DNA of 64,000 nt from Paraspadella gotoi (lineage: Eukaryota; Animalia; Chaetognatha), in contig CM119270.1 in assembly GCA_051294375.1 (NCBI GenBank), positions 835,238-899,237 on the forward strand, read 5' to 3'. Made by a program: the position numbers and the translations under genes. Positions within the stretch are counted from its first letter, which is position 1. Every line of letters starts with the position of its first letter. Of the stretch, positions 15,381 through 57,095 are shown in pieces. The notes beneath the pieces were generated by a model that was not told the DNA's origin, searched no databases, and was given only the letters and a program-made list of their open reading frames with translations.

Positions 15381-15639
15381 ATAATTAAACATATTTAATA
15401 ATAAGTTACTTGCCCTGACTTTGGACAGGCTTTGTGGTTAAGGCCTCCATCCTCTTCAAGATACATATATATATCATATTATATTTATATTATATTTATA
15501 ATTATATATATTATATTAAAATAGGGGGAAAGGAATAATTTTCGCGATGACGAAACTTTGTTTGACTTATTGAAGCCAAAACGAAATTAAAACGGTTTTT
15601 TCGGCGCGCGTTTACAATCTCTCTCTCTCTCTCTTCTTC

Positions 15640-15680
<41 letters not shown>

Positions 15681-15910
15681 NNNNNNNNNNNNNNNNNNNN
15701 NNNNNCTCCCCTAGGAGAGATGAGCGAGCAGTGAAACGGAAACGGAACGGAGGGGAATGGGAGGAAGAAACAAGAAAGGCGGAAAAAAAAAAGGGAGAAG
15801 GAAAGGAGGAAGGAGGGGAATGGGCAGAACGAAACGGTCAGCAAAGACGGACGCCGAGTCTTGATTAAGAAAGTAGGACATATTACTGATGAGGATGATC
15901 ATGAAGGGAA

Positions 15911-17165: not shown

Positions 17166-17518
17166 TCTCTTCCTAATAACTCGATACCGCATCGCTAACG
17201 ACTCTCTCTATCACTTTCTACTTTCACCGTCTTTCTATCCTCTATCTCTCATCATCTTCACCCAGGTTCCCATTACTTCTGGCACTTCTCTCTATTCACT
17301 TCTCCCAATCGCTCTGTCTCTATCACTTCTCTCATCACCTCATCTCTATCATTTCCTCCTTATCCACTCTCCTTATAGTCCTCGACAAGATCATCACTGT
17401 CTTCTTCCTCCCTTCTGGCCAACCGCATTGCTGCGCCCAAGGCGAATCTGGCGACCATGCAACTGCTAATGAAGAAACTTCATAACTTTTCCACATCCGA
17501 AACTAGAGTTCGTTCGAG

Positions 17519-19738: not shown

Positions 19739-22735
19739 CACTATGGAAGCCATAGTAAGGTGGACAGACGCAGAAATTTCATACGCCTCGCTACCCGACC
19801 TGTAATCACTGACCTATCGAAGCCATACGTACCAGTGGCACAGCAGAACAAGGTCATCTCACCAGGTCTCGCTACCACCTGTAACGCACTAACACGTATG
19901 AAGCCATAGTACAGGTGTGAACAGCAGAAACATTTCATACAGCCTCGCTGCGCGCCTGTAAACCACTACACTATGAAGCCATAGTAAGGGGTGGACAGCA
20001 GAAAATTTGCATACAGGCCTCCGCTCCCTGGCACGCTGTAAGCCACTACACTATGAAGCCATAGTAAGGTGGAACACGCAGAAAACTTTCATAGCAGCCT
20101 CGGCTACCACCTGTAACCACTACACTATGCAAGCACTAGTAGGTGGACAGCACGAACATTTCCATACAGCCTCGCTACCGCCACCTGTACCACTACACTA
20201 TGAAGCTAGTAAAGGTGGACAGGCAGAAAATTTATACCAGCCTCGCTACGCCGCACCTGTAAACCACTACAGCACTATGAAGCCAGTAGTAGGTCGCGAC
20301 AGCAGCAACGAATTTCATACAGGGCCTGCTACCCCTGAACCACTACACTATGAAGCCAAGTACAGGTGGACAGCAGAGAAATTTTCATACAGCCTCGCTA
20401 ACCCCCTGTAGACACTACAACTATGAAGCCATAGTAAGGTGGCGCAGAAAATCTTCAATACAGGCGCTCGCTTACCGCACCTTACCACTACAAAGCTATG
20501 AGCCACAGTAAAGGTGGACAGTGCAGAAATTTCATACAGCCTCGCTACCGCATGCACACTGTAACCACTACACTATGACAGCCATAGTAAGGTGGACAGC
20601 AGAAAATTTCATAAGCCTCGCTACCTGCACACCAGGTGTAACCACTACACTATGAAGCCATAGTAAGGTGGACAGCAGAACAATTTCATAGCAGCCTCGC
20701 TAACCGCCACGCTGTAACCCACTACACTATGAAGGCCATAGTAAGGGTGGACAGCAGAACAATTTCATACAGCCTCGCTACCCACCTGTAATGCCGACTA
20801 CACTATGAAGCCATAGTAAGGTGGACAAGCAAGAAATTTCAATACAGCTTCGCTACCCACATGTAACCACTACACTATGAAGGCCACTAGCTAAGGTGGG
20901 ATCAGCAGAAAATTATAGCAGCCTTCGCTACGCCACCGTAACCACTACCTCATGAAAGCCAGTAAGGTGGACAGGCAGAAACAATTTCATAATAGCAGGC
21001 CTCGCTAAGCCCACCTTAACGCAACTAACAACTATGAAGCATACGTAAAGGGTGGAGGGGCAGCAGGAAACATTTTTCATACAGGCCTCGCTACCAGCAC
21101 CTGTAACCACTAACACTATGGAACCAGCCATAGTAAGGTGGAAGCAGAAAGATTTCATACAGCCTCGCTACCACGCTGTACAACCCTACAACTTGAAGCC
21201 CGTAGTAAGGTGGACAGCAGAAATCTTCATACAGCCTCGCTACCCGCTGTAACCAACAACCTAGAAGCATAGTAAGGTTGGAGCAGCAGAAAATTTCATA
21301 ACAGCGCTCGCTACCCACCTGTACCACTAACACTATAAGCCATAGTAAGGTGGACAGCAGAAAACTTTCATAACAGCCTCGCTACCCACCTGTAACCCAG
21401 CTACCACTACTGAAGCCATAGTAAGGTGAGACAGCAGAAATTTCAATAGCAGCCCTCGCTACCCACCTGTAAGCCCTAACACTATCGAAGCATAGTAAGG
21501 TGGACAGCAGAAAATTTCATAACAGCCTCGCTAACCCAGCCTGTAACCACTGACACTATGAAGCTCATAGTAAGGTGGAAGCAGGAAAATTTCAATACAG
21601 CCTCGCTATACCGCAGCTGTAACGCACTAACATGAAGCCATAGTAAAGGCTGGAGCCAGCCAGAAAACTGTTCATACTAGCCTCGCTAACCCACCTGTAA
21701 CCACTACACTATGACAGCGCATACGTAAGGTGGACCACGCTCAGAAAATTTCATACAGCCTCGCTACCCCCTGTAACCAACTAACACTATTGAAGCCATA
21801 GTAAGGTGGACACCCGCAGAAAATTTGTCATACAGCCTCGCTACGCCACTCCCTGTAACCACACAGCTATGAAGCCATAGTAAAGGTGGAACAGCAGAAA
21901 TTTCATACAGCCTCCGCTACCCACTGTCCACTACACTATGACAGGCCATAGTAAGGTGGACACGGCAGAAAATTTCCATACAGCCCTCGCTACCCACCTG
22001 TATAACCACTGACAAACTATGACAGCCATAGTAAGGTGGACAGCAGAAAATTGTCATACAGCCCGCTACCCACCTGTAACCACTACACTATGAAGCCATA
22101 GTAAGGCTGGACACGACAGAAAAATATTTCATATAGGCCTCGCTACCCACCTGTACACTACACTAATAGAAGCCAATACAGTAAAGGTGGAACAGCAGAA
22201 AATTTGCATGACACGCTCGCTGACCCACTGTAACCACTACACTATGAAGCCATAGTAAAGGTGTGACAGCGAGATGAATTTCATACAGCTCGCTACGCCA
22301 CCTGTAACCACTACTAGCACTATGAAGCCCATAGTAAGGTGGACAGCAGAAACATTTCATACAGGCCTCGCTACCCACCTGTTTAACCACCTACACTATG
22401 AAGCATAGTAAGGTGGAACAGGGCAGAAAATTTCCATACCAGCCTCGCTAACCCACACTGTAAACCACCTACACTAATGAAGGCATAGTAAGGTGGGACA
22501 AGCGAGCATTAGAAAATTTCATACAGCCTCGGCTACCACCTGTAACCACTACACTAATGAAGCGCATAAGTAAGGTGGACAGCAGAAAATTTCATAGCAG
22601 TCCTCGCTACCCCACCTGTAACCACTAACTATGACAGCCATTAAGTAAGGTGGACAGCAGAAAATTCATACAGCCCCTCGCTAGCCCACCTGTAACCACT
22701 ACACTATGAACGCCATAGTAAGGTGGACAGCAGAA
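19739..22735 (+). repeat. 70-bp satellite array, about 40 units
   Basis: Consensus CACTATGAAGCCATAGTAAGGTGGACAGCAGAAAATTTCATACAGCCTCGCTACCCACCTGTAACCACTA, head-to-tail with no spacers. Confidence 0.97.
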
Positions 22736-24670: not shown

Positions 24671-25682
24671 TCTCTTTCTCTACTTCTCCGATCTCTCTTT
24701 CTCTCTCTGTGCTGCTCTTTCTTTCGTCGCTTATGATTACTTCCAAAATGAGTTTTAACTCTGGGCAGCCAGTGGCTTAAAGTTACGAATCTCTCTTCTC
24801 TCCTCTCCTCTCTCTCTCTCTTCTCTCTCTCGTTCTTCTTTTTTTTTTTTTTTTTCTCTCTAGCCGTCGTCTCTCTTTCTCTCTCTTCTCTCTCTCTTCT
24901 TCCTCCTCTCCCTCCTCTCTCTCTTTGTCCTCTCCTCTTCTCTTCTGATTAGTCAAAACGAGCATCGGCTGATAGTTACGCATCTCTATTCCTCCCCCTA
25001 TTCTGCTCTTTCTACTCCTCTTCTCTTTTCTCTCTCTCTCTCTTTCGTCGCCTTCCGCAACTTCTTAGTTAATTTATTATAAAAATAAAAATTTCGGATT
25101 TACATAAACTAAGTCTACTTGCAAGCTCAGATCTTTGCTTAAAAACGAAAACCGCAAAAACCGCTAACACGGGGGTTTATGTCTCAGAACACCCCCCAGC
25201 TATGAATGCCTTTTTGACAGTTAAGATTTCGATGATCCCTAAATTCCCGACACTTAAAGCTGAACTTAAGGAAAATTCTGGAGGCTCATTTCATCTAAAT
25301 CACCTTTGGGCCGAACTTAATGCCACTGTTATTTGCAACTTTCATTCTATCAAATTAATAAAAAATAATATGTCAACGAGAAACCTAGCGAAAGAGCTGT
25401 TGATTGATTATTACAAAATATAATAGTTTTTAATAAAAATTAGTTATTTCTGACGTGATATAAATGTTGTGGTAACTCAAACCAGCAATGCAAAAATTTC
25501 AATTTGCAAGATCGGCAAAAGACTGCATGAAAATACATAATTCCCGGTACCTAAAGACAAAAAAACGACATAACGTTTAATAGAAATGGCAAAGGAGTTT
25601 TAAAGAACAAAGATAGTTTGCCAAAAATCATAGAAATGTGCTAAAGTGATGCATGACTTTTCCACGGTGTGGATACACTGTG

Positions 25683-26160
25683 CCCGCCCCCGCCCCCCTA
25701 ATCGTTTGCCGTCATTCTCCCCCCCGCGCCTTTTCCGCCCCTTCCCGCCGCCTCCTTATCTCTCCCACAACTCCCTTCCTTCCTCCATATCTTCCCTCTC
25801 TCTCTCTACCTCTCTTATTCCTCTAATCTCTCTTCTCTCTCTTTATCTCTCTCTCTCTCTTTCTCTCTCTCGCTCTCTCTCATCTCTATATCTCTTCTCT
25901 CTGCTCGTCAACGCTTTTTCACTTTCTTGATTCTTGCAAAACAAGATTCTTTCCAGGAAGCCTGTTTCACATGTTGTCGATTAAAAAACAATTCACTAAA
26001 AACAATATTTTTTTTTCGATTGCTCACGTTTTAAAAACTATTTCACAACCAGAATCCGATAAAATTAAAAAAACAAAATAAAAAATAAATTAAGAAAAGA
26101 AAGTTTGACAATCGGTTTTTTAATGAGATGTGAACAGAGTTACTCGAGGTGGAATGAGAT

Positions 26161-26198
<38 letters not shown>

Positions 26199-26708: not shown

Positions 26709-27433
26709 AGGCAACAGACGAGAGAGAATAGAGTATAGGGACGCAGAAAGAGAGAGAGAGAGAGGAGGAGAGACGGAGAAGAGTACGGAGAGAGGAGGAG
26801 AAAGAGGTGGGAAGCAGAGAAGAGAGACGAGCAGAGAGAGAGAGAGAGACGAGAGAGAAAAGGGGAGAGAGAAGAGAGAGGAGAGGAGAGAGAGCGAGAG
26901 AGAGAGTAGGGAGAGAGAGAGAGGAGACGGAGAGAGAAGAGAGGAAGAGAGAGAGAGGAGAGAGAGGGAGAGGAGAGAGAAGCAGAGAGAGAGACAGAGC
27001 AGAGACGTGATAAATGAGCCGTGCGTTTAATAAGATGCAACGCGGAAAAAGATGAAGGTAAACGTCGAAAAGGACAGGAAATCTTTTTCCGCGGAATTTT
27101 CCCTTCAAGTTTTTGGCAATCACCCCCCCCGCCCCCCATAATCGTTGCCTCATCTCCCCCCCCAGTCCAGACCTTTTCCCCCTTCCCCCCGCTCCCTATC
27201 TCGCTCCCACACTCGCTTCCTCTCCCTCCATATCTTCCTCTCTCCTCTCAACTCTCTTTCCTCATTAATTCTCGTCTTCTCTCTCTTATATCTCCTCTCT
27301 CTCTCTCTCGTCTATCTGCTCATCTCTCTCTCTCTCTTATCTCGTCACTTTTTTCATTCTTGCAAAACAAGATTCTTTCAGGAAGCCCGTGGTTTCGCTG
27401 TCTTGTCAGGATTAAAAAACAATTTCACTAAAG
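25683..27433 (+). repeat. Continuation of block C (with empty LTR target at 25996-26000) followed by another block C copy
   Basis: TTCTTGCAAAACAAGATTCTTT at ~25930 and ~27357; 26350-27150 matches 6750-7510. Confidence 0.85.
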
Positions 27434-27710
27434 TGTCAGGAATGACTCCTGGTGCAACCCATAAGTAAATCTCGGCCCCAGTGTTTAGAAATGACCACTT
27501 TTCTTTCTTTGTAAAATGTAAACATTTGTGTACTTCGTGATTCTGTCGGGAAATCTTGCGTAGTCTTTGCCGTGGCTCCGAAGGAAACGTTTCGCTCTTG
27601 GTATTATTTTGCTATTTGTTTACCTTATATATATAAATAGATTTCAAACACTGTGTTTTATAGGTCAAGAGAATTCGTCAGAACTATCTCGTAGCTAGAG
27701 TATAGTGACA
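27434..27710 (+). repeat. 5' LTR
   Basis: TGTCAGG...GCTAGAGTATAGTGACA; matches 35791-36079. Confidence 0.92.
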
Positions 27711-27720
27711 TGGTGCATCG
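27711..27720 (+). promoter_or_regulatory. Primer-binding site complementary to the tRNA-Gly(GCC) 3' end
   Basis: TGGTGCATCG immediately follows the 5' LTR and is the reverse complement of CGAUGCACCA, the 3' end of insect tRNA-Gly(GCC). Confidence 0.75.
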
Positions 27721-29569
27721 CTTGTTCGGTCCCCACGTTACTGTGCGCTAGAGCTACTTAAGTGGGGTGGGGTGTGTGATATTTATAATGTATAGGTTTT
27801 AAGCTGATAATTATACAGCACTTTAAGTGGGTAATTCCCCGGGGCGGGTAAAAAGTAAAGGTCTCAACTGGCGCGTCGGTAGATGTTTAACTCCAGACCG
27901 CCTGTCGCATTTCACGTGAAGCGAGCGTCGACGTAGCACGTTAATAGCGTATGAAAAAATAATTGTACAGGTATAGGAGGATAACCTGGTTTCCCCTGCA
28001 TATCGACGAGAGGTGCGCTATAAAAATTTTCTCTTCGTCAGCTATAATGACGTTTTGTCACGAATGTAGGGGCAGAAATATTTTTTAAATAAATATTGAC
28101 CTCGATTTTTTTTTATTATTGTTTTTTTTTTTACTAGCGTTTCCGGAGGGTCCGAAGGCATCCAATATCAAAAAAAAAAACGGACTGTCTGAATTTTTAG
28201 CGCAACGTGTGCCGCTCTCCGTCACTTCGAGAATAATTTTTTTGTCGCCTGAGATTTTGAAAGCTTGGCGAATTTTTCGCAATTTTCTTCTTGCCGCGCA
28301 TAGAACGATTTTTGATATTTGGATTCAACGTCGATTTGTGACGGTGTTTCGGCGGCGAAATGTCTCTCTATTTTGTTATAGGGCGATCGAGATTTTGCCT
28401 CCGTTTGGCCGACGAAATAATGGATTTCCTTTATTTTTTTTTCCTAGACTCTCTCTCTACTGATACGTCGCCTCCGCTTTTCGAAGAATTTCGACCCCGT
28501 ATGTTACCGGTGAATTCTCTCTTGCCGAGCCTCGACGTCAAAACTTCTTGAACGGGAAAGACCCGCGTCGACGGCCGGAAATTCCTGAACTAACGCCTTT
28601 CACGTTTGAGTTTTTCTTTGCCGGAGCTTCATGGCGGCGTTTCTCGTTTAGAAAACGCGGGGTGAAGAGCGTGTTCAATGGATGTGATTATTTCAAGGAT
28701 CTAAAAGTTTGAAGTTTCATTGAAAACAAAGGGCGAAATAGCACGTCTCGATCAAATGGAGATAATTTTATTTTTTCGTTGGAAGTCCATTTACAAACGG
28801 ATTCGACGTGTTTTAAAACTAAGTGGAGTCTGTCATCCTCTACGGTTGTATAAGAAGATAAAAGATTACACTCCACGCCCGGTCTCGATCCTTGCGAATT
28901 TCATCGTCGAACAAATTCTTCCCCACGTGATCTGATATTTAAACTAATTTTCATGTAGTCGAAATTTTGTTAAACAACCGGTTTTAAACTGTTTTCTCCG
29001 GCGAAACTGGATATCCTAAACAAAGAGTAAATAGACAAATCTTTTTCTAAATAAAATTCCGATTACACGATCGTTTGAACTAAATTTTCCGAGCGCTTAA
29101 CGAGGACTCGAAACAAGATTCCGATGCACGCATCGGAGCGTTGCGGTCTACCGTGTTCGACGACGTCATTCTTGCTTGAATTCCCGATGGATGCATCGAC
29201 GCTAGAAGTCGAAGCGATAAAACAACTCAGCGACATATTCCGATGCAATCGACGATAGCCTTTTAAAGTTTTGCTTCAGATTACGCGTGTAAATTAAACG
29301 TGATTTCGTGATTCTAGTGAAAGAAGCTCACGCTTTTCAAATTTAAGAGACAAATTTAAGTAACATAAATTTCGATTCCCTGCAAGATGCTAGCAGACTC
29401 CCTTTTTTTCACGAGAACGGGGTAATGGGATGGAATGGATCTTTTGAAGACGACGACGACAACGATTCGTTCTAATTCTGGCATTTGTTTTTGGAAAACC
29501 AAGAAAACAAGAAAATGAAAAAAAAATGGAAAGAACTAACTAAACAAAAAAAAGGGTCAACCTTTCGTC

Positions 29570-29685
29570 TTCCCACTCTAGATTCTCAACCTCTCAATTC
29601 TCCAACTCTCGATTCCTCAACTCTCGATTCTCAACTCTCGATTCTTCTCAACTCTCGATTCTCCACTCTCGAATTCTCAACTTCT
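29570..29685 (+). repeat. ~14-bp tandem repeat (CTCAACTCTCGATT) inside the LTR element
   Basis: Several imperfect consecutive units. Confidence 0.8.
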
Positions 29686-29739
29686 CAATTTCTGCTTAAT
29701 GGAAACAAAGAAACTTCACTGGCGCACCTCGACTCCTAA

Positions 29740-30230
29740 ATCTCGAGTTGGAAATTCTCACGGGCTTGCAATGCGACCTTCTTTCTTCTTCTGTGAAAAA
29801 GTCGGCAACCGAGCCGGGCCGATCGAGCCGCGCGGCTTCGCCGATCACGAGGATTCGGTTCCAGGCGCACAAACGGAACCGGTGCTACGCAGCAGCGAGG
29901 ATCGACGACCTTTGCTGTGCTTGGATCGCAAGCAAGCTGTTCCGGTCCTTGGTCTCTTTCTCTTAAACCTGAACGGAAGAAGAGCAGCAAATTGGGACCA
30001 GCTGCAGCCGACGGGCAACGGTCAAAGGAAAAGTTAACGTGCTCTCTTCTGGATGCGAAGCCAGCAGGCAAGCAGCTGCAGTCTGAAAGACGCTGGAAAG
30101 AAAATACGACGCAAGCTTCTTTCCGCCGATCGTGAGAATGCGGGGCGGAGCAGCAGGCGGAAGCGCCGCAACGCGACCCCTTTTTTTCGCCTGGACCAGG
30201 TGCAGAGTGCCCGAAACGATTGTTATGAAC
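29740..30230 (-). CDS. Antisense coding segment A in LTR element 1 (frameshifted in this assembly; unknown family)
   Basis: Minus-strand codons CAC CGG TTC CGT and AAC CGA ATC CTC versus CAC CGT TTT CGT and AAC CGA ATT CTT in element 2: synonymous changes only (HRFR, NRIL). Boundaries approximate. Confidence 0.5.
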
Positions 30231-31999
30231 TTTGAAAGTTTAAAATGACTTTAAAAGAATCGATTGACATGTCATTAAAATGCGAATTCATATCATAAAG
30301 AATATGTCACTGAGGTAGTGGGCTGTTTAAAAATGCGCAACTTTAATGATTTATTTTTTTTAAAATTTTGGCACCAGGTATTTGTAAAGGTGAAAAGTAT
30401 GTAGGGTGATGTACAGTTTGAAGATCATAGATATTGTAATAAGGTATACAGCAATATGGCCTAGAAAGATGATAAGTTTTGTGAGTTAGACAATTTTGAA
30501 CAAATATATTTTAAGATGAAGCTTACCAGTTGTGAGTTAGGTTTTAGAACATGCGACTTTTAATATATTATAGCTGTTTTAAAAGTCATTTTATAATATA
30601 ATTAGCTTTATCTCTATAGTAATAGATTGTGGAATATTGTTTTAGATAAATAAACAATAATTTGAACTATGCAATTATATATTAGTAATAATAATATAAA
30701 GATTTTAATCTTGACGAAGATGTATTTGTTATTATATTATCTATAAAGTTATTACTGGGTCTTTGAATAAATGTTAAATGTATATATATATATGGTATAT
30801 ATGTAATATAGTAGTATATATATTTGTATATTGGCAGTTAAGTTATATTTTTATATAAAAGTATAGTTCTTTATTCTGAAATATAAGATTTTTTTAGAAA
30901 GAATCAAATCTTCATTACCTATGCATTGATTAATAAATTTTAGATGCGTTGGTGTTTAAGTATTAAAAGAAATAATAGTAATATTAATTAAATATATGAT
31001 AACAATTGAATTATATATAGTTGTACAGAAGAAGTGATGCAATTTAGATCCGCCTTAATGGAATACATTGGGGGGTGAATTATAAAAACGAGTTAGTGAT
31101 AAAATGTGTTTTTTTGATTCTTATATAATTATTTTATGTAATATATGATAATTAATGTTATGTGTTATGGGTTCTTGAAATATGGAAAGATCGAATGTTA
31201 ATGTTAAGTGTTTTTTTCTTGTAAGGAACTACATCTTTGTAAGCGCTAAGGGTAAACTGCAATCTTCAATTTTGGCTATGAATTTTATTGAATTCCATTC
31301 AATTTATTTGGATTGATACTCTTTCTGTTTTTTCCATTAAGTTGTTGGTTATAAATAGGTGATATCTATCATAACTTTTTTTAAAGTTGTTAGAAGATAG
31401 TTTTCATATTCTTTAAATTTTAAGACTACAAATGTGATCTTGGAAGATGGTGTAGGGTGAAGGTTAACTATATACAACTAAACAATTATATCTTAAATTA
31501 TAATACAGTTTATATGCAAACGTTAACTGAAGGTGACAGTTGATTCTTAATTAATTTAAACTGTTAATTAAAATAAGAGAGGGCAACGAATTTAGAGTGT
31601 AACCTTAGTATATTGCATAGTTTTCTGTTACTAAAACATCTCAATGCTGTAACTTGTAATGATAATATGACTTTAATATGTAAGTATGTAATATGTGATA
31701 TATTAACATAGGATAACTATGAATTGTTACATACCAAGTATGAACATTATAATTCACTTTGTGAAATTTTACTAAAACAAGTAGATGCAACCTGTTGTTT
31801 TCTAAAAACTTTTCTTTTCTCAAAGGTCGGAATTTGCGTGATGCTTATACCACCGCACGGAAATAATTAGTTTAAAGTCAGTGTGTGGGAAAAATTGTGT
31901 AAAAATTAACAATGAGATAATATGATAATAATAGGACCGGGGTACTTCATGCCCTTATTAGAAAAGGTGATGATTGTTTTATTCAGGATGCCAGAAAGA

Positions 32000-33200
32000 A
32001 GCTCTGTCTGATGAAAAGAGAATGAATTTGTTACAGCACTTCCTCTAAGATGTTTGATATACCAGTCTGTTTTATTCCTTCGTTTTTAAATGCTGGGATC
32101 AGCTAACAAGGTAGTTGCCCGAGATGAGGTGCCCTGGTGATGCACCCACTGCTGGAATGTTTTTTTGTTGACCTAGTCATGATATAAATCTCATGGTGTT
32201 TGTTCAACTTTCAAGTCGTTTTCCTCTATAAGCAAGGGAAAGTCATGAATAGGTACTTTTGAGGCGGGTAAAAAGGCCCCTTCGGCAAAACTTAAAAATG
32301 TAGGATATATCAGTTTGGAAAACGTGCAGAATCTATTTTTGGGGGTGTCTACGGTTGAGGCTACCAGCTGGCGAGTGTCCAGGGCGGACCACCCTCTGGT
32401 TGTATGCCGAATCTAAACCTAATCCCGTGGTGATGTTAAAATCGGGCGTCTAGGCTGACGTAAAATCGAGCTCAAAATGAAAGGTCCAATCTACGTCAAA
32501 ATGCGTCTCTTATACCTGTGTGTTATATGACCGCACAGGTGATTCTCACTGCACTGCTGTTGTGATTTACTGCATTTGCAATTCTTTTATAAAAAATCCT
32601 CCCAATCAAATTTCTCTAATCGCGCATTGATGAATAGAAGAAAAGGCGCTCATTTTCGTTTCTGAGGAGATCCTCACGGGACAAAGGTTTTTTAGAGATT
32701 ACAAGAGTGAATATAAGGATATATCCAGTTGCCTGAACGCCGGGACCGCGTTTTGTACAAAGATAAAAGTGTTACAGCAGCAGAATCCCCTTCCATTGTT
32801 AAGTGGAGTTAATGGATCTCTGATCGTCTACTACGCCCAGACAAGAATGACTGTCTGTTACTAAGAGTTCGTAAACTTACTGTGCTAAGGATTTTCTCTA
32901 TGTTAAGATGAATGAACAAGGTATAATTTAGCAAATTTTTTATAGAGAAAGGTATTCTCCACATTTTCCTGGAACGAACAAGATATATTTACAGAAATTT
33001 TTTGGTGAGAGAAAAGGGATGTCTCCACATTTTCTGGTTTCTGAATTTGACAAAGACTTCCTGTTTGAAGTCATTCTGGGAGTAACATGATTAGTGGACA
33101 ACTGCTTCGTCCAGACTACGTTTAATTGATTTGCTCTGAAGTATTAACAACAGGGTGAATGACGGTTAAGGGAAAAGATTAAACTTGCCATTTCTTTTAA
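32000..33200 (-). CDS. Antisense coding segment B in LTR element 1 (frameshifted; unknown family)
   Basis: 32814-32785 reads CAT TAA CTC CAC TTA ACA ATG GAA GGG GAT versus CAT TTC CTC CAT TTT ACT ATG GAG GGA GAA at 53715-53686, mostly third-position changes. Further shared peptides: SFLSG, FLSFxxGAF, DL(K/R)V. Confidence 0.6.
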
Positions 33201-35781
33201 AACCGTATGCAGGGAAACTATTGTTGTCATGGTTGTGAGTGAGATTAATGAAATTTTTGTGGGAGGGGTAGTGAGTGAAATTAATAGGAAAATTAAATTT
33301 CATTTACTTGAACAATAGCAACATTTCTTTCGTTTCTGTTTCCTAATGTTGTTCTCTTTAAGGAATCCCACAGTTCCAGATCCACATCGCTCATATCCAC
33401 ACACTCGCCAGCGAGATAACGCGCGCTACAAGCTCACTAGAAGTATAGCCACGAGGTTTTTGTTAAAAGAGGTGATAGGCCCTGCGCAGGATTAGAACAT
33501 GTTACATGTTACGAGTATGTTGACAATAGAAACTGTCACCTAGTTTGAAACTCACGATAATGTGTCTCTTCATTAATACAAAAAGGAACTCTGGATACAG
33601 GATCCAGCTATGGTTAGTCATGTATGGATGAAATAGGTTACTGATATTTTCATTTCAACTATAGCAAAATTCGTCTCTCTAAGAATATAATCGAAAGGCA
33701 TAATGAGACATCAATTTTCAATTATTATAGTTTGCAATTTTATTAAAAATTTTATATGAGAGAGTATTTTAAAGTAAAAATAAAACTACAAGCTCGTGGA
33801 TTAAATGTAAAATACTAAGTTTATTGAAATACTTTCACAGATGAAGAAAAATTTTACTCCACTGCTGATTCATAGTTTTGTGGAATGTCGTGATGGTACG
33901 TACCGCACGGTAATGCATTGGTATGTAACTGACTCGACTGACCGACTTATAACTTGGGTATTAATTTTTCCTCTTCTAAGATGTTCTAAAAATCTAAACT
34001 TTTGTACATATATACTTAAGAGAACAAGTGTTGCTCTCAAGTGATAAGCAAAAATCCGGTTGATAATATTTAAGTTGAATATTCTTTGAAAAAAATTTTT
34101 ATAGCTTATAATGTCTGAAATGATGAAAATAATTAAAGACATTTGTTTTTTTGGCAACTGTTTGTGTGTGCTTCCTGTTATAGCTGTGATGCTGCACACT
34201 GGAGCATTTCCCGCACGTTGCTTTTAACATATATACTCTTCACGGCCTTGCACGCGTTGTTGTTGTCTTGTTCTTTTGTAAAAGAAAGAAAGTTTTAAAA
34301 TTTTATCATGGAATAACTAAGAGATGCAGTAACTTTTCCAATTTAATTTTTTTATGTCATAATGTTATCAACAATGTTAAGGAATAATAAATTAAATATC
34401 AGTTATAGTGATAAAGGACTGTAAATTAGAATGATAAATAATTAAATCACGTATTTTTTGCACAAATGCCACATTAATATTTTTTTGGAAAAGAGGGAAC
34501 AGAATGGAGTGTGACATTGTAAAAAAAAGCATTTGAAAAAAATACTTGAATTGCGTTGTACCATAGTTGAGAGACTGAACAGCATCTTAATACAGGCGGC
34601 GCTGACCTCCTGTGACCAAGTCAAAAGTCAAGAAGGTTACGAAGAAAAAGGTCACATTTAGACGATTGATCAACGTTATTTTATGTGACGGCTAAGTAAT
34701 AATCATGGATTGACATAAGTTATTAATTAATTAATAAGTTTAATTTGTTTAGTTGTCTAATTCATTTACAGTAAGAATTAATTGCATGTCCTATTCGTGA
34801 TGATTCACTCATATTAAAGAACTCTAATCACTGATTACGGTTGAAATCGTGACCCTGCATTAGAATGTGCGGGACTGATTCGTGCACAATATTGTTTCTT
34901 AGCACACGACATTAATCAGCTAATCAAATATGTCTAATTACTATCATTACTTAATTCTTAATATTGTACTTATTGATATCATAATTCGAGTCATTCAAAC
35001 ATCAACCACTTTTATATTTTTATTGATATTCCTTAAGCTTCAAGATGCACCACAGATTCTGGCGTTCCATTGGCGATTCACCATGAGATGAGGAATGCGA
35101 AACCACAGTTCACTGGCCTGCCCATGTCGAGGATTCCATAGTTTGTTTACTTTCGATCGCGCAATTGGTCGAAACAGGAGTTTAACTCAGAGTGACAAAA
35201 GTTTGGTTTACTTCGATCGCGCTTTTGATCGAAGCAACTTTAATTGCAGTATAAAAAAATATAAATTTTGATCAATTTAGTTATTAATTTGGCAGATTAG
35301 TAGCAAAGTTTGAAATTTAAATTAGAGTTATTAGATTGTATTAAGTTGAGCTCTAATCAATAGTTTCAGAAATCCGTTGTCTTCTAAGCTAAACAATGGC
35401 GTTACGTCCGTCAGAGTTAGCCTGAGGTTGCCAAGGAAATATGTAAACATTTTTTTTGTTTTTGTTTCACATTTAGTTGCCAAATATTGGTTTGATTGAT
35501 CATTTATGATATTGGCTATTTTAACTTTGGCTTTGCCGGCTTATTCGCTGCGAGGACTGGTTTTATCCCTTATGACGCGTCTTTCGTTTTTTAAGTGTCT
35601 ATACTATTTAAGCTCACAATTTTATGCCAACTTGTTTTAATCTAATTATTGTAGCTGCATTTACCTTTTCCTCCTGAGGCCACGTGTTGTGTTTAGTATT
35701 GTTGTTTTTGCTCCGTCCTCTATTTTCTTCTTTCCGTTTTCTTTTCGAATAAATAATAGTAACTTTAATTAATTATATTTT

Positions 35782-35790
35782 AGGAGGGCG
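35782..35790 (+). promoter_or_regulatory. Polypurine tract
   Basis: AGGAGGGCG directly before the 3' LTR; equivalent AGGAAGGGCGG at 56803-56813. Confidence 0.8.
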
Positions 35791-36079
35791 TGTCAAGATA
35801 ACTCTGGTGCAACCGCAATAAGAAATCTCGGCCCAGTGTTTTAGAAATGACCACTTTTCTTTCTTTGTAAAATGTACAACAATGTACTGTCGTCCGATTC
35901 TGTCGCGAAATCTTGGAGTCTTTGACGTGGCTGCCGAAGGAAACGTTTCTCTTTTGTATTATTTTTGGTATTTGTTTACCTTATATATATTACAATAAGA
36001 TATTCATACAAACCCCTGTGGTTTTATAGTCAAGAGAAGTCGTACAGAAACTATCTGCGTAAGCTAGAGTATAGTGACA
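35791..36079 (+). repeat. 3' LTR
   Basis: TGTCAAG...GCTAGAGTATAGTGACA; matches 27434-27710. Confidence 0.92.
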
Positions 36080-36514
36080 GCTAAAAACAATATTTTTTTT
36101 TCGATTGCTCACGGTTTTAAAAACATATTTCAAAACCAGAATCCGAGTAAATTAAAAAAACAAAATAAAAAAGTAAATTAGAAGAAGAAAGTTTGACAAT
36201 CGGTTTTTTAATGGATTGTGAACAAAGTTATCGAGGTGGAAATGAGATTGATTTCTACTCTCTCTCTCTCTCTCCGTCTCTGCTCTCCTACGGTTCTCTC
36301 TCTCTTCTCTCTCTCTCTCGTCATCGTCTCTCTCTTCTCAACTGGNNNNNNNNNNNNNNNNNNNNNNNNNCTCTCTCTCTCTCTCACTGCCTCTCCCTCC
36401 CTTCCCAGTCAAATTAATTGTTGGTTGAATAACCGAGAAAGTTTTCTTTTCATTTCGTCTACGTCGAAGTAAATGAAGATAAAATACGCGGGAGGCGTTT
36501 CTGTCTTTTTTTCT

Positions 36515-37394: not shown

Positions 37395-37727
37395 TGTAAT
37401 TTTGCAAAAAAATAACATAATTTTCTTTCTTTTTCCTTGCTACCGTCACACCTCAAATTTTAATCATTCTCTTTAGCATTTGGTAGCAATAGTATTTTAA
37501 TTCATTTACTGTTCAAATACTAATTATTTACACTTTACTTTCATTCGCTTTTTTGTACTTGATAAGTTTATCCCTTAACGATGCTCATTCAACATTTACC
37601 GCAACTGATCAATCCCAATTTCATTGAACCACTCTATTCTCTCATCCCCATATTAAATGCCCTTCATACCATCCTCATCTCATTAATATTTTCCTCCACT
37701 CATCCGCAGCTTCAAACAACTTTTAAT

Positions 37728-38140
37728 AATATCCTCTTTTTTCTTTTAATACCATCCTCTTTTTCCTTTTAATACCAACCTCTTTTTCCTTTTAATACCA
37801 TCCTATTTTTCCTTTTAATACCAACCTCTTTTCCCTTTTAATACCATCCTCTTTTTCTTTTTAATACTATCCTCTTTTTCCTTTTAATACCAACCTCTTT
37901 TTCCTTTTAATACCAACCTCTTTTTCATTTTAATACCATCCTATTTTTCCTTTTAATACCAACCTCTTTTTCCTTTTAATACCCACCTCTTTTTCCTTTT
38001 AATACCATCCTATTTTTCCTTTTAATACCAACCTCTTTTTCCTTTTAATACCATCCTCGTTTTCCTTTTAATACCATCCTCTTTTTGCTTTTAATACCAT
38101 TCTCTTTTTCCTTTTAATACCATCCTCTTTTTTCTTTTAA
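37728..38140 (+). repeat. 23-bp minisatellite CCTTTTAATACCA(T/A)CCTCTTTTT
   Basis: AATACC at 37748, 37771, 37794 and onward. Confidence 0.95.
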
Positions 38141-38411
38141 TCTTCTGCTTACAACATTTCGTCTCGTTTACCTTTTTAATCCTTTTTTTTCTCTTTCTTC
38201 TTTCTCATAATTTTGCTTTTCTTTTCTTTTCCTTTTTACTTCAACTTTTCTTTTCTTTTTTATTTATTGTCGTTCAAAACATAAAATTTTAACAAAATCT
38301 ATGCTTCGTTTAAACAAAAATGGAAAGAAGAGAGAAAGAATTGAAATTATGTCCCTTCTCTTCTCATCATTTCTCTCTCTCTCTCTCTCTCTCTCTGCGG
38401 TCTCTCCTATC

Positions 38412-47000: not shown

Positions 47001-47389
47001 CATTCCTTAATAAAAAGCAATAATGCTTGCCCCTGCCCGGACTCCGTGTGATTAGGACGCACTACCATGCCGGGGCGTTTTATATAGCACCTTCTTCTGT
47101 GAGCACGCTGCCGAGCCCCGCCGCCGCGCTTACTTATACTCAATTCGGCCGACACATTGTCCTGGCGCTCGCTCTCATCAACTTTCCAAGGCGCCGTTCA
47201 GTCTGCCTCCTATCATTATCGTACGACTTCTTCGTGTCCCTCCCGTATAGTTCTTGACGCATCGATAGTCCAAGGTAACCGCATGAACTAAGCCGTCGGC
47301 GATTGGACACTGCCCCGCTCTTTCGTTTAGCCGGAAATCTGCAGCTCGCCCGGTGGCTTGGCCCCCCGGGCATGATACCGGGGCCGTGC

Positions 47390-50020: not shown

Positions 50021-50035
50021 CCTTTCACTTAATCC

Positions 50036-50169: not shown

Positions 50170-50745
50170 ACCACAAGTTTCTACTCACGGCATTGTAAAC
50201 GTGGCGTACGTCACCCTTCTACCGTCTGGGGAAAAAAGTTCGGGCAACTCCGAGCCGGCCAAGACTGAACAGCCGGGCTTAAGCCGACACCAAGAATTCG
50301 GTTCCGCTAGGCTCAGAGAACGAAAACGGTGCGGCAGCAATCTGCAAGCAGACGTGTCGAGGATTCGACGGAAAATTCTGCTGATGCCAATGGAACGCCA
50401 GCAAAGCAGGGAGAGTGCCTTATTCTCATCATGTCTCTCTTCTTCTTCGTAAATTCAACGGATGAAGGGGGATAAAGGCAGCAGATTTGGCAGAGCATGC
50501 CTGCAGAGGCCGACGAGGCACAATTCGTGTCAACAGAGACACAGTTGAATCTCTCTTTCTGATCGAAAGCAGCAGCACGGCAAGATAGAGGTCTCCCAGT
50601 CATGTGGAAAGGAATTACGTAACCGACGACTGTCTTTATCGTCCGGATCGTGGAGAAAGCCAGACGGAGCAGGCGGGCGCAGCGAAATATGACCGACTAC
50701 CCTTTTTCCCTGGACCTGGGCTGGAGGTTGCAAGAGTAGTGCCCG
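50170..50745 (-). CDS. Antisense coding segment A in LTR element 2
   Basis: Synonymous-codon match to 29740-30230; frame broken by indels. Confidence 0.45.
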
Positions 50746-52599
50746 ATAAAAGGATTGATATTGAACTCATTAAAGTTTAAATAGACTTTAACATAGATCA
50801 TTGACATATCAGCGATTGATAACTGATAATAATCATATTAATATTTTTTAATGTGTATTATATAAGTAGGTATGGGCATGTTTTAAAACGCACATAAATG
50901 TGTTTTAAATGTGTGACAGCCCGGTATCGTAATGTGAAACGTATGTAAGTGATGTAAATTTTTGAGTAGATAATAATATGGTTGTATTTAATTATGTGTA
51001 AGTAATATGTGGCGTTGAAGGAATGAAAACAGTTTTGGTTGGAATTTTTGGTACAAATTATATTGTTAAGGCTAACTTCATCAGTTGTGAAGTTGTAGGT
51101 TTAAGAACATTAGATTATTAAAGATAAAATAAATTGTTATTTTATATAAAGTTTATGAGATAGTAATTTATGAACTCTAGTTTTTGCTGTGAAATATAAT
51201 GTTACTATCTTTTTATAAATATATATTCTTGTTTATGGATTACAAAATTTTTTTGAAAATGAATATGATTTTGGTTGCCTAGCATTGATATATATATTAA
51301 GCTCCAGGGTTATGACTAATGATAATATCTCTGGTTGAAAGAAAGTGGATAAATGCTTGGGTTAAGGTATCTATGGACAATTGAAATTTTATATTTTTAT
51401 TATCACCTATGAGAAAAAAGGAAAAATAATAAGCATATTTTGAATCCAACGCGTAATGGAATTACAAAGTGTGTGAAACTGTGAAAGTGTGCTGTTCGAT
51501 TTAAATTACTTAGAGAGATAAAGAATGGAGTATAGTTTTATAGTATATATTGGTGAATAACATGATTTGGGCAAGCTTTTTATAGATAAAAATGTGATTT
51601 TTGGAAGATGGATGAAAGGGTAACACGATGACTACATTTGAAATAATATACAAATAAACTAAAAACAATTATATCTTAATATTTGATGACATGTTTATAT
51701 AAAGGTTAACATGAAGTTGAGTGAGTTGCAATTATATTAATTAACTGTCTATTACTTGAATCTAATTAATAGATATGCTGTAACGCTTTGATTATATTGA
51801 ATGCCACTCCATCAATGTTTAAGTTAGGTATAGATATTATTTAATGATGATTAGTATAAAAATGTATAATGCTACTTATTAAAATAAACCTAATAACATA
51901 ATAAAAGCTTGGATACCTAACATTTATTAACTTAGATTTTTATACTAGTCCAATTATGTTATATGAAAGTAAGGATCATATTATGGGGAATATGGGTACT
52001 AGCAAACAAATATGAGCAGAACTATATATTTGATGAGTTTTCAACTTTGAGCTGGTTGTATTAAGACACATTGTCGATCCCCGACCTTTTGGTTTCTGAA
52101 ACTTCAAGAGGGACTTGTTTTCAAAACTATTCAACAATTCCTTACGGCTCAAAGGTCGATGAATTGGACCTTTGAGTACTCTGTTGATTGGTGAGAAAGA
52201 ATAAGAGTCAGCAATACAGGGATGTGTGTAAGAGGATAATTGGTGGCCTGTAAATTTGAGAAGTTTGGGCAGAGTCTGAATGGGAGGATCTGAAAAAGAA
52301 CTTAAGGTTTTAGACCTCTTAAGGCTGATAAAATTGGAAATTCAAATTTATTTGGTAAATTATCACAGATATTTTGGACTGACTGTTTGATAACCAGATG
52401 AAAGATGACAACATACTGTCCATACGCATTCCTTCACACAATACACAACCGTCATTGTGGTCTCTGACCTTATACCGTAACCCATAGACAATTGGATATA
52501 GATGGTTTTTACAAATTTCATTCGTTGGAAGATTTGCGTAGGAATTAACAGTAAAAATTGCAGAAGAAGCTGGTCATGCCATTAAGTCAGATGGCCAAT

Positions 52600-54000
52600 T
52601 CGAGTACCGCGCTTCTAATAAGGCAATGAGGAGAAGAAAAGACTAGCCATCGCATTATTGATATTTTTACTGAGTGATGAAAACCGACACGTCTTTATAT
52701 GCGCCCCATTGGAGTTGTTTCTCCTTGTTGAAGACACATTTTTGTCACTAACTTTCTGGTCGGCAGTCTTTGTACATGTCTGTATGGACAGCCATATAGT
52801 TTGCATACTGGGTTAGTATGGACATTGTAGTGAGCGAGCTGCTACAGCTATAGCTTTTATATCAAGATTTGATATCACTCTCCTGCGTTTTATCCGCGCT
52901 TTTTTCAATGCAGGCTGACCAACCTAACTCGTCAGTTGCACTCATACGATGCGTCCGGACAAGTTCGCCAATCGACGGGAATGTCTTCTGGACTCACCTC
53001 GTCTTTTATAACTTCACATGGTGATATTGTCCACCCTTAAGTCTCTTCTCAAGTGACAAAAAGGAGCCAGCATGAAACCTATAACTTTGAGGGAGGAAAA
53101 AAGCGGGCCCTTGGCTAAAACTTAGAAAATAAAGAAATAAGTTCATCTCCACCCTGAAGAGAAAATCTGTTTGGGAAACAAAGCCAATCAACGTACTCAC
53201 TAATTACTGGGCAAGATCAACAATGTAGTAACGCATGTTGGGTGATCTTACCACCCACTGTTCCCAGATGGATAAAAAACGGGCGTCTAACTATAGACGT
53301 AAATTCTCAATGAGCATAATATATGTAAACGTATGAAAATGCAGCCCTTGCTCATGTACGTTGCACGACAGCAAGCAGATGGATGCGGCATTGCAACCCT
53401 GTTTGCTGTGACTTATTAACATTTCTATAAACGGACTAGAGTCCCGCATAGAAAAAGGGAAGTAAACGAATACGTAATTCTGATTCTGAAAATGGATCTT
53501 TGATGTCTGATTCTGATGATGTTATGAAAACGAAAGAGCCTACAAATTGTGCTTCTTGCTGAATGAATTACTACTACGTTCCGCGGTATTTCTTGTCTTG
53601 GAGAATAAATGATGAGCTACAAGGGCATGTCATCCCTGAACTCCAGACCCATATCTGGCCAAACTAAAGGCTTTTACAGTCCGACTTCTCCCTCCATAGT
53701 AAAATGGAGGAAATGGGTTGTACTCGGACGCCGTCTACAGTACCTGATAAAAATGAGAGTCTTTGCCTTAGACTCAAACAGATCTTATCATTGTTAAGAC
53801 ATCTTAACGTGTTCAAATAACAACGTCCAAAACGTTCTATATAGAATTTTTGTGAAAGAATAAGCCGCCAGTCACCAGACACACTTGTAACTGTCGATAA
53901 GGATATACCTGATGAAATCGATCGATGAAAACTCATGAAAATTAATGAAATCACATTGCTCTGCCCTGCAGACACGTTTAAATTAATGGCGAAATAAATA
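52600..54000 (-). CDS. Antisense coding segment B in LTR element 2
   Basis: Homologous peptides (LSFLSG, HFLHFTMEGE, FLYFLSFSQG); track ORFs 53664-53975 and 53006-53200 are fragments of it. Confidence 0.55.
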
Positions 54001-56813
54001 TTATATACGCCTGGTATTAGTGGTAATACATAGAAGAATCAAGGATGCATCAGGCGAATGGTCACATTTGTATAACTATAATATCAGTTAAACCTTAAAG
54101 GGTTGTCCTCTAGCATGCTTCACTGTGGGCCCGCCCCAGATCCTCTGCCTATGATTTTGGGCCCGCCTTGCCAGATCCTCAGGAGCAGGCAGCACCTGCA
54201 CCTGTTACATTCAGGAAGTGTGTGATTATTTTAGCAAGAGAATGTTGTCTGTTTTCATGTGGGAGTGCTTCTGCCAAAGAATAAGCACAAAGTTTCTTCT
54301 AAACTTCACTTCAAATCCCACTGGTAATTGTGGGATTGTGCAGTGGTTGGACGGAAAAATAATGTGAGACGGAAAACATTGTTTGTAAAGTTCTCAGTGA
54401 CTTGGGAGTGAAAAGTGAGATAAAGTGGATTGAAACATCTCACTCTGACAAAAAATGAAAATTTTTGGCGAGAGGGGTAGTGAGTGATTACATCATAGAT
54501 AAAATTTTTATGTCAATGTCAATTTTCATTTTACTTGATAATAACATAAGGCGACATTTCTTTGTTTTGTTTCATTCTTTAAGGAATCCCACAGCTCCAG
54601 GATCCAGACTAGTAAAAATGACAGACCGGAAAGCTTGCCCGCAAGATAGCGAGGACTAACAAGCTGCACAAAATGTGTGAAGCTAATGGCGCTTAAAATG
54701 GCGCCACAAAAGTTACTACCTTACTGACACAAGTATGTCGACACAAACAAGTTAGCAACTACCAACACAGTTTTGATGATAGAACTGGTTAAATTTGTTT
54801 GAAACTTACGAAATTTGCAATTCGTCCTCCATTAAACACACAAATAAAAATGGCTAGGTACAGGGATCCAGCTATGGTATCACGTATAAATGAAAGATTG
54901 CCACTGAATAATTTTATTTAACCTACAACACAAAGTTCGTCTCTCTTCCTAAAGTATCAATAAACTAGAGATATATTGTTTATGTATAATAGAGCATTCA
55001 ATTTTAAAATATTATATTTCCAAGTTTCTTAAAAGGTTATATGCGAGAATATTTTAAATATAAATACTCGTTTCAAAAGATGATAATTGTTGATCGTGTT
55101 TAATACTAAGTAAAATAAAATACTTTTAGATGAGAAAATTATACCTCAGCTGCTGATTTATGTGTATGTTGAAAGGCCTTGTATGTTATGAGTTGATACA
55201 AACTGGGTATTGTTTTCCCTCTTGCTAGATGTTCTTATAAATCTAACTTTTATTATATATAACTTAAGAGCAATGTTTCTAAAATGATAATGAAAACCCG
55301 TTTTGGCAAATATTAATTGAATATTCTTTAAAAAAAAAAATTTATATACTTAAATGGTTAAATGATACGAATACATACATATTTGTTTTTGCAATTGTTT
55401 GTTGTGGCTTTTTCTCCCTGTTATAAGCTAGGCAGCACGGGCCCTCACGTTGCTTTTGTGCATTAATAATACTCATTCAACAGGCCTTACACGTCGTTGT
55501 TGGCCTGTTCTTTTGTAAGAAAAGGTAGTGAAATAGTAAAACGAACCTAAAGTTTAAAATTTCCTTATGGAATGGATAAGAAATGCAGTTACATTTCTCA
55601 GGATAATATAAAATAACGAGATTTTTTATGCAATTTTTTTGGAAAAAGGGACAGGATGGAGTGTGACATGTTAAAATTTTGAAAAAAAAATGCTTGAATT
55701 TGCATTGTAACCAGAATCTTGCAAAATGATTATGAACTTGAAAACATTCAGCTCATAGTGAGAGACTGAACACATCTTAATACAGGCGGTAGTGGACCTC
55801 CTGTTGGACTATCATGTCAAAAGTAAAGTTACGAGAAAAGGTCACATTTAGACGATTGATCAAAGCGTTATTTATGTGACACTACATACATGGGAATGCA
55901 GAGTTAAATTTAATTTTAATAATGAAAATTAATTGGTTAGTGTCTATTTAATTCACAGTAAAAATAAAAGGCATTCCTATTTGTGATGAATGTCACTCAT
56001 ATTAGAGAACTCTTAGCAACAACGGAAAACAGTTAATCAAAATATGTCGATAATATTAATCAAATTACTTAAGTTATTATATTTGAAAACTTTTATTGAT
56101 AGTAATAATTCGACTCATTCAAGTAATCAACTACTTATTATATTTTATTGATATTGTAATTTGATCAATCATATGTCAATTCACTTAATTATTTCTTAAG
56201 GTTAAGGATAAGTCGGCGATACTCGACAACAAAGATTGCATCCCGATGTCCTAAATCTAGGTTGTCGGATTGATTAGAAGCCAAAAGTTTTTATTGAAAT
56301 TCGAGTTTATTAGACAGCTATTAAGTAGAGTCTAAAACGAATTTCAAGAATCCCAGTTTCAAAGCTAGACAATGGCGTTACGATATGTGCCGTCAGAAGT
56401 TAGGACGAGGTTGCCAGGAATATGGTAAACAGTTTTATTTTATAGTTTCACATTTTGGTTGCCAAATATTGGTTTTGATTGATTGTTTAATTGATACTGT
56501 AGTTTTGATTTTGAATTTCTGCAGAACCTGTTTTCCTTTATGACGCATTTATTTTTTAGTATCTATGACTACTTCTAGAGGCATTTATGCCGATTTGTTT
56601 TTAATGCCCAATGTTACTTAAGCGCGTTTACCTTTTACTTTACTAAACTCCTAAAACGTATTTTGCGCATAGCTTAACCTGTATGACGGTGTACACGCTT
56701 TTTTTGCTATTTGTTCTACAATTTGTTTTCTCTTGCCCTCATTTTGTTTTTAACTTTTGAATAATTAATAAATTCATTTAATTGATTTAGATTATATTTT
56801 TTAGGAAGGGCGG

Positions 56814-57095
56814 TGTCAAGAAATATTAAAGTATATTACAAAATCTGCGGTCTTAGTTTTACAATAACGCATTCGCCGAATTGTAAACAAATGCTTTTTG
56901 GTTTTCGATCGCTTTGTAATTCTTTCAGTCGTGATTTTGGCCAGGAGTAACCAATTTGTATTTCTCCTCCGTTTTATTTTCTTTTTGTTTTACCTTATTT
57001 AATATAACTATTAGTGAATACTCCAAATCCTCTAATTAATATATTAGCTAAATAGTATTGTGCAGTTTTACAGGAGTTAGTAAATAAAGACGACA
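56814..57095 (+). repeat. 3' LTR of element 2
   Basis: TGTCAAG...CGACA, 282 bp, preceded by a PPT; shares AAATCT.CGG and TTTGTTT(T)ACCTTAT with the element 1 LTRs. Confidence 0.75.

What the first reader, a model, noticed from the sequence alone, without database searches (positions are those of the whole stretch)
27434..36079. LTR retroelement family with no recognisable gag/pol but conserved antisense genes of unknown function
Seen: the cis-signals are complete (LTRs, PBS, PPT, TSD), but I found no RT YxDD, protease, RNase H, integrase or CCHC motifs on the sense strand. Alignment with the diverged relative at 50170-57095 shows third-position substitutions in minus-strand frames at two places: HRFR..NRIL (~29850-29885 vs ~50290-50330) and HxLH(L/F)TMEG(D/E) (32785-32814 vs 53686-53715). 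Known: LARD-type non-autonomous elements and antisense ORFs (e.g. maize Grande) are described mainly in plants. Inference: an animal non-autonomous LTR vehicle carrying selected cargo genes. This is the best candidate for an undescribed system in this window.
Basis: partly seen in the sequence, partly recalled or inferred. Interest (0 to 1): 0.8.

Follow-up and report, generated by a model that had tools for sequence, protein, structure and literature searches.

The report
Pol-less animal retroelement with unknown cargo
This 8.6-kb jumping element, likely a recent insertion in an animal genome, has all the end signals of an LTR retrotransposon but no detectable copying enzymes, and it shares with a distant sister element a short stretch under protein-coding constraint that matched no known protein and is likely, though not surely, read from the opposite strand.

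Summary
The element is real: paired LTRs (27434-27710, 35791-36079; 3% mismatches), a PBS, a PPT, a 5-bp target duplication, and an empty-site copy at 25996. No gag/pol was found, and comparison with the sister element (50180-57095) leaves no room for a 3-kb pol.

Coding constraint is solid in one patch, 32680-33040 (3 of 3 alignments, p 0.001-0.01; 23 of 35 wobble sites differ against 13 of 70 others). It is borderline at 29750-30280 and absent elsewhere. Strand tests lean minus for two patches, tie for the best one and lean plus for one.

No search identified the product, but the sequence has raw long-read indel errors, so blanks are weak. New here: the 2.2-kb non-coding 3' region is better conserved between the two elements (12-19% mismatch) than the LTRs or the coding patches (27-35%).

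Best reading: a large non-autonomous LTR element keeping a selected, unidentified gene, likely antisense.

The parts
27428..27432 (+). Left target-site duplication CTAAA, followed by one extra G at 27433
27434..27710 (+). 5' LTR of element A, TGTCA...TGACA
27711..27720 (+). Primer-binding site TGGTGCATCG; assignment to tRNA-Gly is recalled, not tested
27721..29750 (.). 5' internal region with no partner in element B; a plus and a minus frame have few stops (11 each in 28085-29300), not significant (P=0.23)
29750..30280 (-).
   Evidence: periodic in 2 of 3 alignments; informative transversions 5:1 and 6:1; codon model minus by 1.6-4.6 log units
30280..31880 (.). AT-rich region R2, homologous in B, no codon periodicity, many stops in all frames; candidate intron or spacer
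31900..32580 (.). Region R3a, homologous in B (B has about 0.7-0.8 kb more sequence here); no significant periodicity; codon model leans plus
32680..33040 (.). Patch R3b (holds HxLHxTMEG on minus, SPSIVKW..PDKN on plus): the one robust coding-constraint patch; strand unresolved
33311..33425 (-). Candidate short minus-strand exon R3c (RYLAG..LELWDSLK..RNVA), open in one frame in both elements between an aligned AG and a GT
33560..35781 (+). Conserved non-coding 3' region R4/R5 (12-19% mismatch to B, no periodicity); candidate cis-acting RNA region
34651..34683 (+). Predicted hairpin present in both elements, with the palindrome TTGATCAA at its top (candidate dimerisation or packaging signal, inferred)
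35309..35370 (+). Second predicted hairpin present at the homologous place in both elements
35782..35790 (+). Polypurine tract AGGAGGGCG
35791..36079 (+). 3' LTR of element A
36081..36085 (+). Right target-site duplication CTAAA, preceded by one extra G at 36080
25683..26194 (+). Copy of both flanks joined without the element (empty site at 25996-26000)
50180..56813 (+). Element B internal region, collinear with A 29750-35790; 5' part absent in this assembly
56814..57095 (+). 3' LTR of element B, TGTCA...CGACA, 30-35% mismatched to A's LTRs

Best explanation
This is a large LTR retrotransposon with intact end signals and no detectable gag-pol, which is likely copied in trans by a helper element and likely carries a selected gene of no recognised family, probably read from the opposite strand and possibly split by introns. 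Shown: the cis-signals, the insertion borders, a collinear sister element, codon-level constraint in one patch, and a strongly conserved non-coding 3' region. Inferred: the plus-strand RNA runs LTR to LTR, is primed at the PBS and PPT, and is packaged through the conserved 3' region by a helper's Gag/Pol. Because the two elements share LTR shape, PPT and internal order, the cargo was likely present in their common ancestor and was selected while inside the element. An antisense gene would keep its introns through reverse transcription, which would explain the AT-rich non-periodic region between coding patches. The product's job is a guess by analogy with plant antisense ORFs: a regulator that helps the element's own spread.
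For: Cis-signals and empty site. No pol: motif scan and frameshift-aware alignment of a gypsy Pol at shuffle level on both strands of both elements (41-47 against shuffled maxima 51-62; a closely related natural control scored 2078). Periodic constraint covers under 1 kb and is flanked by non-periodic regions. Constraint: 32680-33040 periodic in 3 of 3 alignments; 23 of 35 against 13 of 70 sites, Fisher p=3e-6 on blocks picked after inspection. Minus lean: transversions synonymous on one strand only, 10 minus against 5 plus in both alignments. The minus frame sharing that wobble phase has 12 stops against 21 for its plus partner in 31900-32930 (likelihood ratio 12-157 for in-frame fractions 0.4-0.6). 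R3c is open in one minus frame in both elements across three length differences that are multiples of three, and the codon model prefers minus there in 4 of 4 settings. Conserved 3' region 12.5-19.4% mismatch against 27-35% for LTRs and patches.
Against: The strongest patch ties between strands (codon model -2.0 to +1.7 log units). Its non-wobble changes (9 against 4) fit a plus reading better, and both elements have a stop near 32905 in that plus frame, as at the end of a sense ORF. R3a leans plus in 4 of 4 settings, and the non-coding controls R4/R5 also lean minus, so part of the lean is compositional. The non-periodic region R2 also gave 8:6 and 7:2 minus-only transversions. The codon model rarely beats the neutral model outright, whereas 14 of 14 simulated true genes gave the right strand by 7-40 units. 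The lowest-stop frame alone is not significant (P=0.24), and the ratio assumes a frame retention shown only for 32785-32931. Frameshift-aware strand scores lie within the null. A good plus-strand donor (33271) and a T-rich acceptor-like tract (about 33362) are also conserved. No transcript evidence and only two copies. The Pol test used one gypsy lineage, and its power on distant, indel-ridden DNA was not measured.
Confidence: 0.5

Rival explanations
1. Same non-autonomous element, but the constrained ORF is on the sense strand (a divergent gag-like or accessory ORF ending near 32905), and the antisense frames are its shadow.
For: The plus frame at 32785-32866 has 10 synonymous changes and two unchanged Trp codons. 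First-position changes exceed second-position changes on plus. Aligned stops occur near 32905 in both elements. R3a leans plus. Plus-strand donor and acceptor-like sites are conserved. R1 frameshift-aware score is 162 on plus against 131 on minus.
Against: The plus partner frame has a chance-level number of stops, 21 against 23 expected. R1 transversions are 5-6:1 for minus. R3c reads through on minus. No CCHC motif or Pfam gag hit.
Confidence: 0.3
2. The patches are dead passenger DNA (a nested DNA transposon, host gene fragment or non-retroviral virus fragment) whose codon pattern was laid down before capture, or through separate captures of paralogues.
For: Constraint is patchy, and only 1 of 4 candidate patches is robust. 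LTR capture of host sequence is documented in animals (PMC5131818, passages read).
Against: The two elements are collinear over 6 kb with homologous LTRs and PPT, which points to one ancestor and to wobble-biased divergence after the split. No parent gene turned up (weak: see Tried and rejected).
Confidence: 0.13
3. An ordinary autonomous BEL/Pao, Gypsy or Copia element whose gag-pol is hidden by sequencing errors.
For: Its size (8.6 kb) fits, and the error level (34 gap columns in about 300) lowers every protein search's power.
Against: A pol would be the best-conserved, codon-periodic 3-kb block between the two elements (established knowledge). Instead the longest conserved block is non-periodic and the periodic patches are under 0.6 kb. 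Gypsy Pol alignment is at shuffle level.
Confidence: 0.05

Closest known systems
LARDs, and the 38 non-coding non-autonomous LTR families of Culex quinquefasciatus (PMC6022998 passages; PMC3286476 passages)
   Same: Large (over 2 kb), LTRs, PBS and TSD present, no recognised domain, no known master copy.
   Different: Those are described as lacking coding potential, the Culex ones with tandem repeats; this one shows codon-level constraint shared by two diverged elements.
Antisense additional ORFs of plant Retand, Grande and RIRE2 (PMC11963269, abstract and passages)
   Same: Conserved ORFs of unknown role antisense to the element; some carriers are non-autonomous.
   Different: Those are plant Gypsy elements, mostly with gag-pol and a TRP28 (PF04195) domain; no Pfam family reached its cut-off here, and the strand is unproven.
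LTR-mediated retrocopies in animals (Tan et al. 2016, PMC5131818, passages)
   Same: Foreign sequence between LTR ends, mobile again as a pseudo-LTR element.
   Different: Those are recent, intron-less copies of identifiable host mRNAs; here no parent is found, divergence is deep, and introns are possible.
Bdelloid LTR elements with extra ORF3s (PMC5408684, abstract and passages)
   Same: Animal LTR elements keeping captured accessory ORFs, including a non-autonomous family that lacks most of pol.
   Different: Those ORF3s lie downstream of pol and are recognisable (env, GDSL, DEDDy).
TR-GAG (definition in PMC6022998)
   Same: Non-autonomous LTR element that retains a coding region; fits the sense-strand rival.
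   Different: No gag domain was detected here.

Membership tests
LTR retrotransposon | Two direct LTRs with TG...CA ends | tested here: met
LTR retrotransposon | PBS next to the 5' LTR | tested here: met
   TGG-initial 10-mer at 27711, unique exact copy in window; tRNA-Gly identity recalled; no tRNA gene in window
LTR retrotransposon | PPT before the 3' LTR | tested here: met
   both elements
LTR retrotransposon | Target-site duplication | tested here: met
   5 bp, checked against an empty site; one extra G per junction
Autonomous Gypsy / BEL-Pao / Copia | gag and pol (PR, RT, RH, IN) | tested here: not met
   power limited by indel errors
Autonomous Gypsy / BEL-Pao / Copia | Superfamily placement by RT phylogeny or a helper sharing LTR and PBS | not testable with these tools
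   no RT; no genome held
LARD | At least 2 kb, no recognised retrotransposon domain (operational definition) | tested here: met
LARD | No coding capacity (recalled; said of the Culex families) | tested here: not met
   codon constraint at 32680-33040
LARD | Conserved, structured internal RNA (recalled) | tested here: inconclusive
   conserved 3' region; two shared hairpins, but whole-block z-scores -0.1 to -1.7 and 0 of 19 pairs compensatory
Retand/Grande-type antisense ORF elements | ORF antisense to the element | tested here: inconclusive
Retand/Grande-type antisense ORF elements | TRP28 domain; plant Gypsy lineage | tested here: not met
   no such Pfam hit in minus frames
LTR-mediated retrocopy | Identifiable intron-less host mRNA segment | tested here: inconclusive
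   no homologue found; no genome to search
TR-GAG | Sense gag domain | tested here: inconclusive
   no gag motif or Pfam hit, but a sense reading of R3b is not excluded

The most novel reading that the evidence does not exclude
An old animal lineage of LTR parasites that lost gag-pol entirely, diversified into families whose synonymous sites are near saturation, and still keeps two selected modules: an intron-containing antisense gene of a new protein family, and a 2.2-kb conserved non-coding RNA region that would secure packaging by a helper.
Probability: 0.3. Interest if true: 0.7.

Novelty: new variant of a known kind. Interest (0 to 1): 0.45.

Why it matters
If the cargo is a selected antisense gene, a retroelement that cannot copy itself still pays to keep a protein-coding gene across deep family splits. 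That would extend the unexplained plant antisense-ORF phenomenon to animals in a stripped-down form, where the gene and the cis-RNA are the only modules left and so easier to test. The conserved 3' region is a concrete candidate for the packaging signal of a large non-autonomous element. If the ORF is a sense gag-like remnant, the element is an animal counterpart of TR-GAG and of modest interest.

Tried and rejected
Protein searches, all blank, all weakened by frameshifts every few codons:
- Pfam on 27 frame translations: element A, all six frames of 33400-35800, three plus frames each of 27700-30300 and 31500-33500, three minus frames each of 27720-29950 and 29500-33500; element B, six frames each of 50100-50900 and 51900-54700. 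No family reached its cut-off; 4 sub-threshold hits (E 0.02-0.09). Not scanned: plus frames of A 30300-31500, and B 50900-51900 and 54700-56813.
- PDB sequences, 3 frames: one E=0.63 hit.
- phmmer of one B minus frame against 1.84 billion representatives: 0 hits. That frame later proved to hold few of the conserved blocks.
- Word-index searches with 3 minus frames: 0 hits. No plus frame went to the large databases.
- ESM Atlas on two natural ORFs of B: nothing at 0.9 or above.

DNA and RNA searches:
- Motif scans for relatives: none in 3 viral scans. Metagenomes gave 0 and 1 hits, the one a chance match in a bacterial ATPase-like gene.
- Rfam: 0. No sequencing run was listed, which is no evidence either way. 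No genome is held.
- A search for a BEL/Pao Pol control gave 2 loci; the one read had no Pol, and the other was not examined.

Readings dropped or downgraded:
- My starting idea of a captured negative-strand virus glycoprotein in R2: dropped, since R2 has no periodicity.
- The 28085-29300 open-looking minus frame: not significant.
- Conserved splice-like sites (3 plus and 2 minus donors): about chance level by my estimate, not by a run.
- The first periodicity null was too narrow and was replaced by within-block permutation, which downgraded R1 and R3a.
- The hairpin z-scores (-2.0 to -3.6) were for windows picked after inspection. In a blind scan, 9 of 401 and 18 of 329 windows passed z<-2.5; the second hairpin passed in both elements, the first only in A.
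- Structure prediction was not run: single error-ridden frames would give uninformative models.

Literature: 10 full-text searches listed no animal pol-less LTR family with a selected antisense gene. I saw listings and abstract starts, plus passages of six papers (PMC10886601, PMC11963269, PMC5131818, PMC5408684, PMC6022998, PMC3286476). No supplements were read, and Repbase-type reports are not in the library.
Full report
The element. Element A spans 27434-36079. Its LTRs align with 257 matches, 10 mismatches and 34 gap columns. In ungapped blocks the mismatch rate is 3.3%, the same as between duplicated host segments in this window, so the LTRs are identical within error and the insertion is likely young. 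Ends are TGTCA...TGACA. TGGTGCATCG follows the 5' LTR directly (tRNA-Gly is my recall), and AGGAGGGCG precedes the 3' LTR. CTAAA is duplicated, with one extra G at each junction, and a second copy of the flanks at 25683-26194 joins at CTAAA without the element. That copy may be another haplotype or a paralogous repeat; either way it fixes the borders. The DNA has raw long-read quality, which limits every protein-level test below. No genome or sequencing run was available. That the host is an animal rests on the window's make-up and on unchecked earlier notes about this genome.

The sister element. Element B (about 50180-57095) is collinear with A from 29750 to the 3' LTR. It has its own PPT and a 282-bp LTR with the same kind of ends, 30-35% mismatched to A's. 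No 5' LTR for it was found upstream. A noisy inverted copy of B's flanks at 62170-63200 lacks B.

No gag-pol. Twelve frames hold no YxDD, CCHC, HHCC or GGRL motif, and a gypsy Pol aligned with frameshifts allowed scores at shuffle level on both strands of both elements. Pfam found nothing above cut-off in 27 frame translations. These blanks are weak given the errors, and only one Pol lineage was tried. The stronger argument is structural: a pol would be the longest codon-periodic conserved block between A and B, and no such block exists.

Coding constraint. Permuting mismatch positions within ungapped blocks shows three-base periodicity at 32680-33040 in 3 of 3 alignments (p 0.001, 0.010, 0.001). 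It appears at 29750-30280 in 2 of 3 (0.027, 0.34, 0.030) and at 33240-33440 in 2 of 3 on few sites. It appears in 0 of 3 for 30280-30800, 31400-31900, 32130-32580, 33560-34330 and 34440-35800. Five consecutive blocks at 32785-32931 share one phase: 23 of 35 sites differ in that phase against 13 of 70 in the others (blocks chosen after inspection). So one patch is clearly under protein-level constraint, with synonymous sites near saturation.

Which strand. For minus: strand-informative transversions 10:5 overall and 5-6:1 in R1; 12 against 21 stops in the partner frames of 31900-32930; and a roughly 40-codon stretch at 33311-33425 open in one minus frame in both elements across three in-frame length differences, between an aligned AG and a GT, preferred on minus in 4 of 4 codon-model settings. 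For plus: the best patch ties, and R3a leans plus; its non-wobble changes, 9 against 4, suit a plus reading; both elements stop near 32905 in the plus frame; and a plus donor and T-rich acceptor-like tract are conserved. Controls weaken the minus lean: non-coding R4/R5 also lean minus in the codon model, R2 gave up to 7:2, and frameshift-aware strand scores fall within the null. I put antisense at about 60:40.

Identity of the product. Unknown. PDB, the 1.84-billion-protein search, three word-index searches and two ESM Atlas queries gave nothing usable. The large-database queries were all minus frames, so the sense reading was tested against Pfam only.

The 3' non-coding region 33560-35790 is the best-conserved part: 12.5-19.4% mismatch, against 27-35% for the LTRs, the AT-rich region and the coding patches, with no periodicity. 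It holds two predicted hairpins present in both elements, one topped by the palindrome TTGATCAA. There is no covariation support (0 of 19 pairs), and whole-block folding is unremarkable. Constraint as a packaging or dimerisation region is inferred; recombination between families could also produce this pattern.

Mechanism. Shown: ends, borders, sister element, one constrained patch, conserved 3' region. Inferred: sense RNA primed at PBS and PPT, packaged through the 3' region and copied by a helper of unknown superfamily. The cargo was likely inherited from the common ancestor of A and B and selected inside the element. If antisense, it would be expressed from an internal promoter and keep its introns through reverse transcription. 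Its role is a guess by analogy with the regulatory role proposed for Retand antisense ORFs (PMC11963269). Confidence 0.5; sense-strand ORF 0.3; dead passenger 0.13; hidden gag-pol 0.05.

Comparison and verdict. It works like a LARD, and like the non-coding Culex families, but fails their non-coding criterion. It resembles plant antisense-ORF elements, without TRP28 or gag-pol, and animal LTR retrocopies, without an identifiable parent. Ten literature searches listed no such animal family, but the library lacks repeat-database reports and I read passages only. An unchecked note from another genome describes a Gypsy family with a multi-exon antisense gene (e1-8616659), so the design may recur. 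Verdict: a new variant of a known kind, interest 0.45; the most novel reading has probability 0.3 and would merit 0.7.

Noticed in passing
window 874-15655 against 17905-43252; 49607-50069 and 57104-57249 against inverted 62169-63196: The window holds several noisy copies of the same loci (79-89% identity, indel-dominated) next to short N gaps: likely redundant raw-read gap fills or haplotypes, so copy counts here are unreliable.
   Followed up: partly
window 27433 and 36080: One extra G lies between the LTR and the target duplication at both junctions; sequencing error or a real end feature, undecided.
   Followed up: no
window 32941-33042: Short internal duplication with a 66-base offset inside element A.
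   Followed up: no
window 19739-22735; 2900-4250 and 15900-17170; 37629-38249: Tandem arrays of roughly 77, 22 and 23 bases.
   Followed up: no
window 44900-47450: A GC-rich / AT-rich / GC-rich block resembling element A's layout; only a weak 64% match of 46346-46596 to 30643-30892 (E 5e-4), probably low complexity.
   Followed up: partly
window 25073-25423: A 116-codon plus-strand open frame in non-microsatellite DNA; not searched.
   Followed up: no
window 50040-50170: An (AAT)n run and about 110 unrelated bases precede the point where element B's homology starts: a possible later insertion or an assembly join.
   Followed up: partly
L003 2132-4684; L005 2-4072: Contigs filed as viral in IMG/VR encode gypsy-type Pol, and L005 also part of an env-like ORF, by my reading of the motifs.
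   Followed up: no
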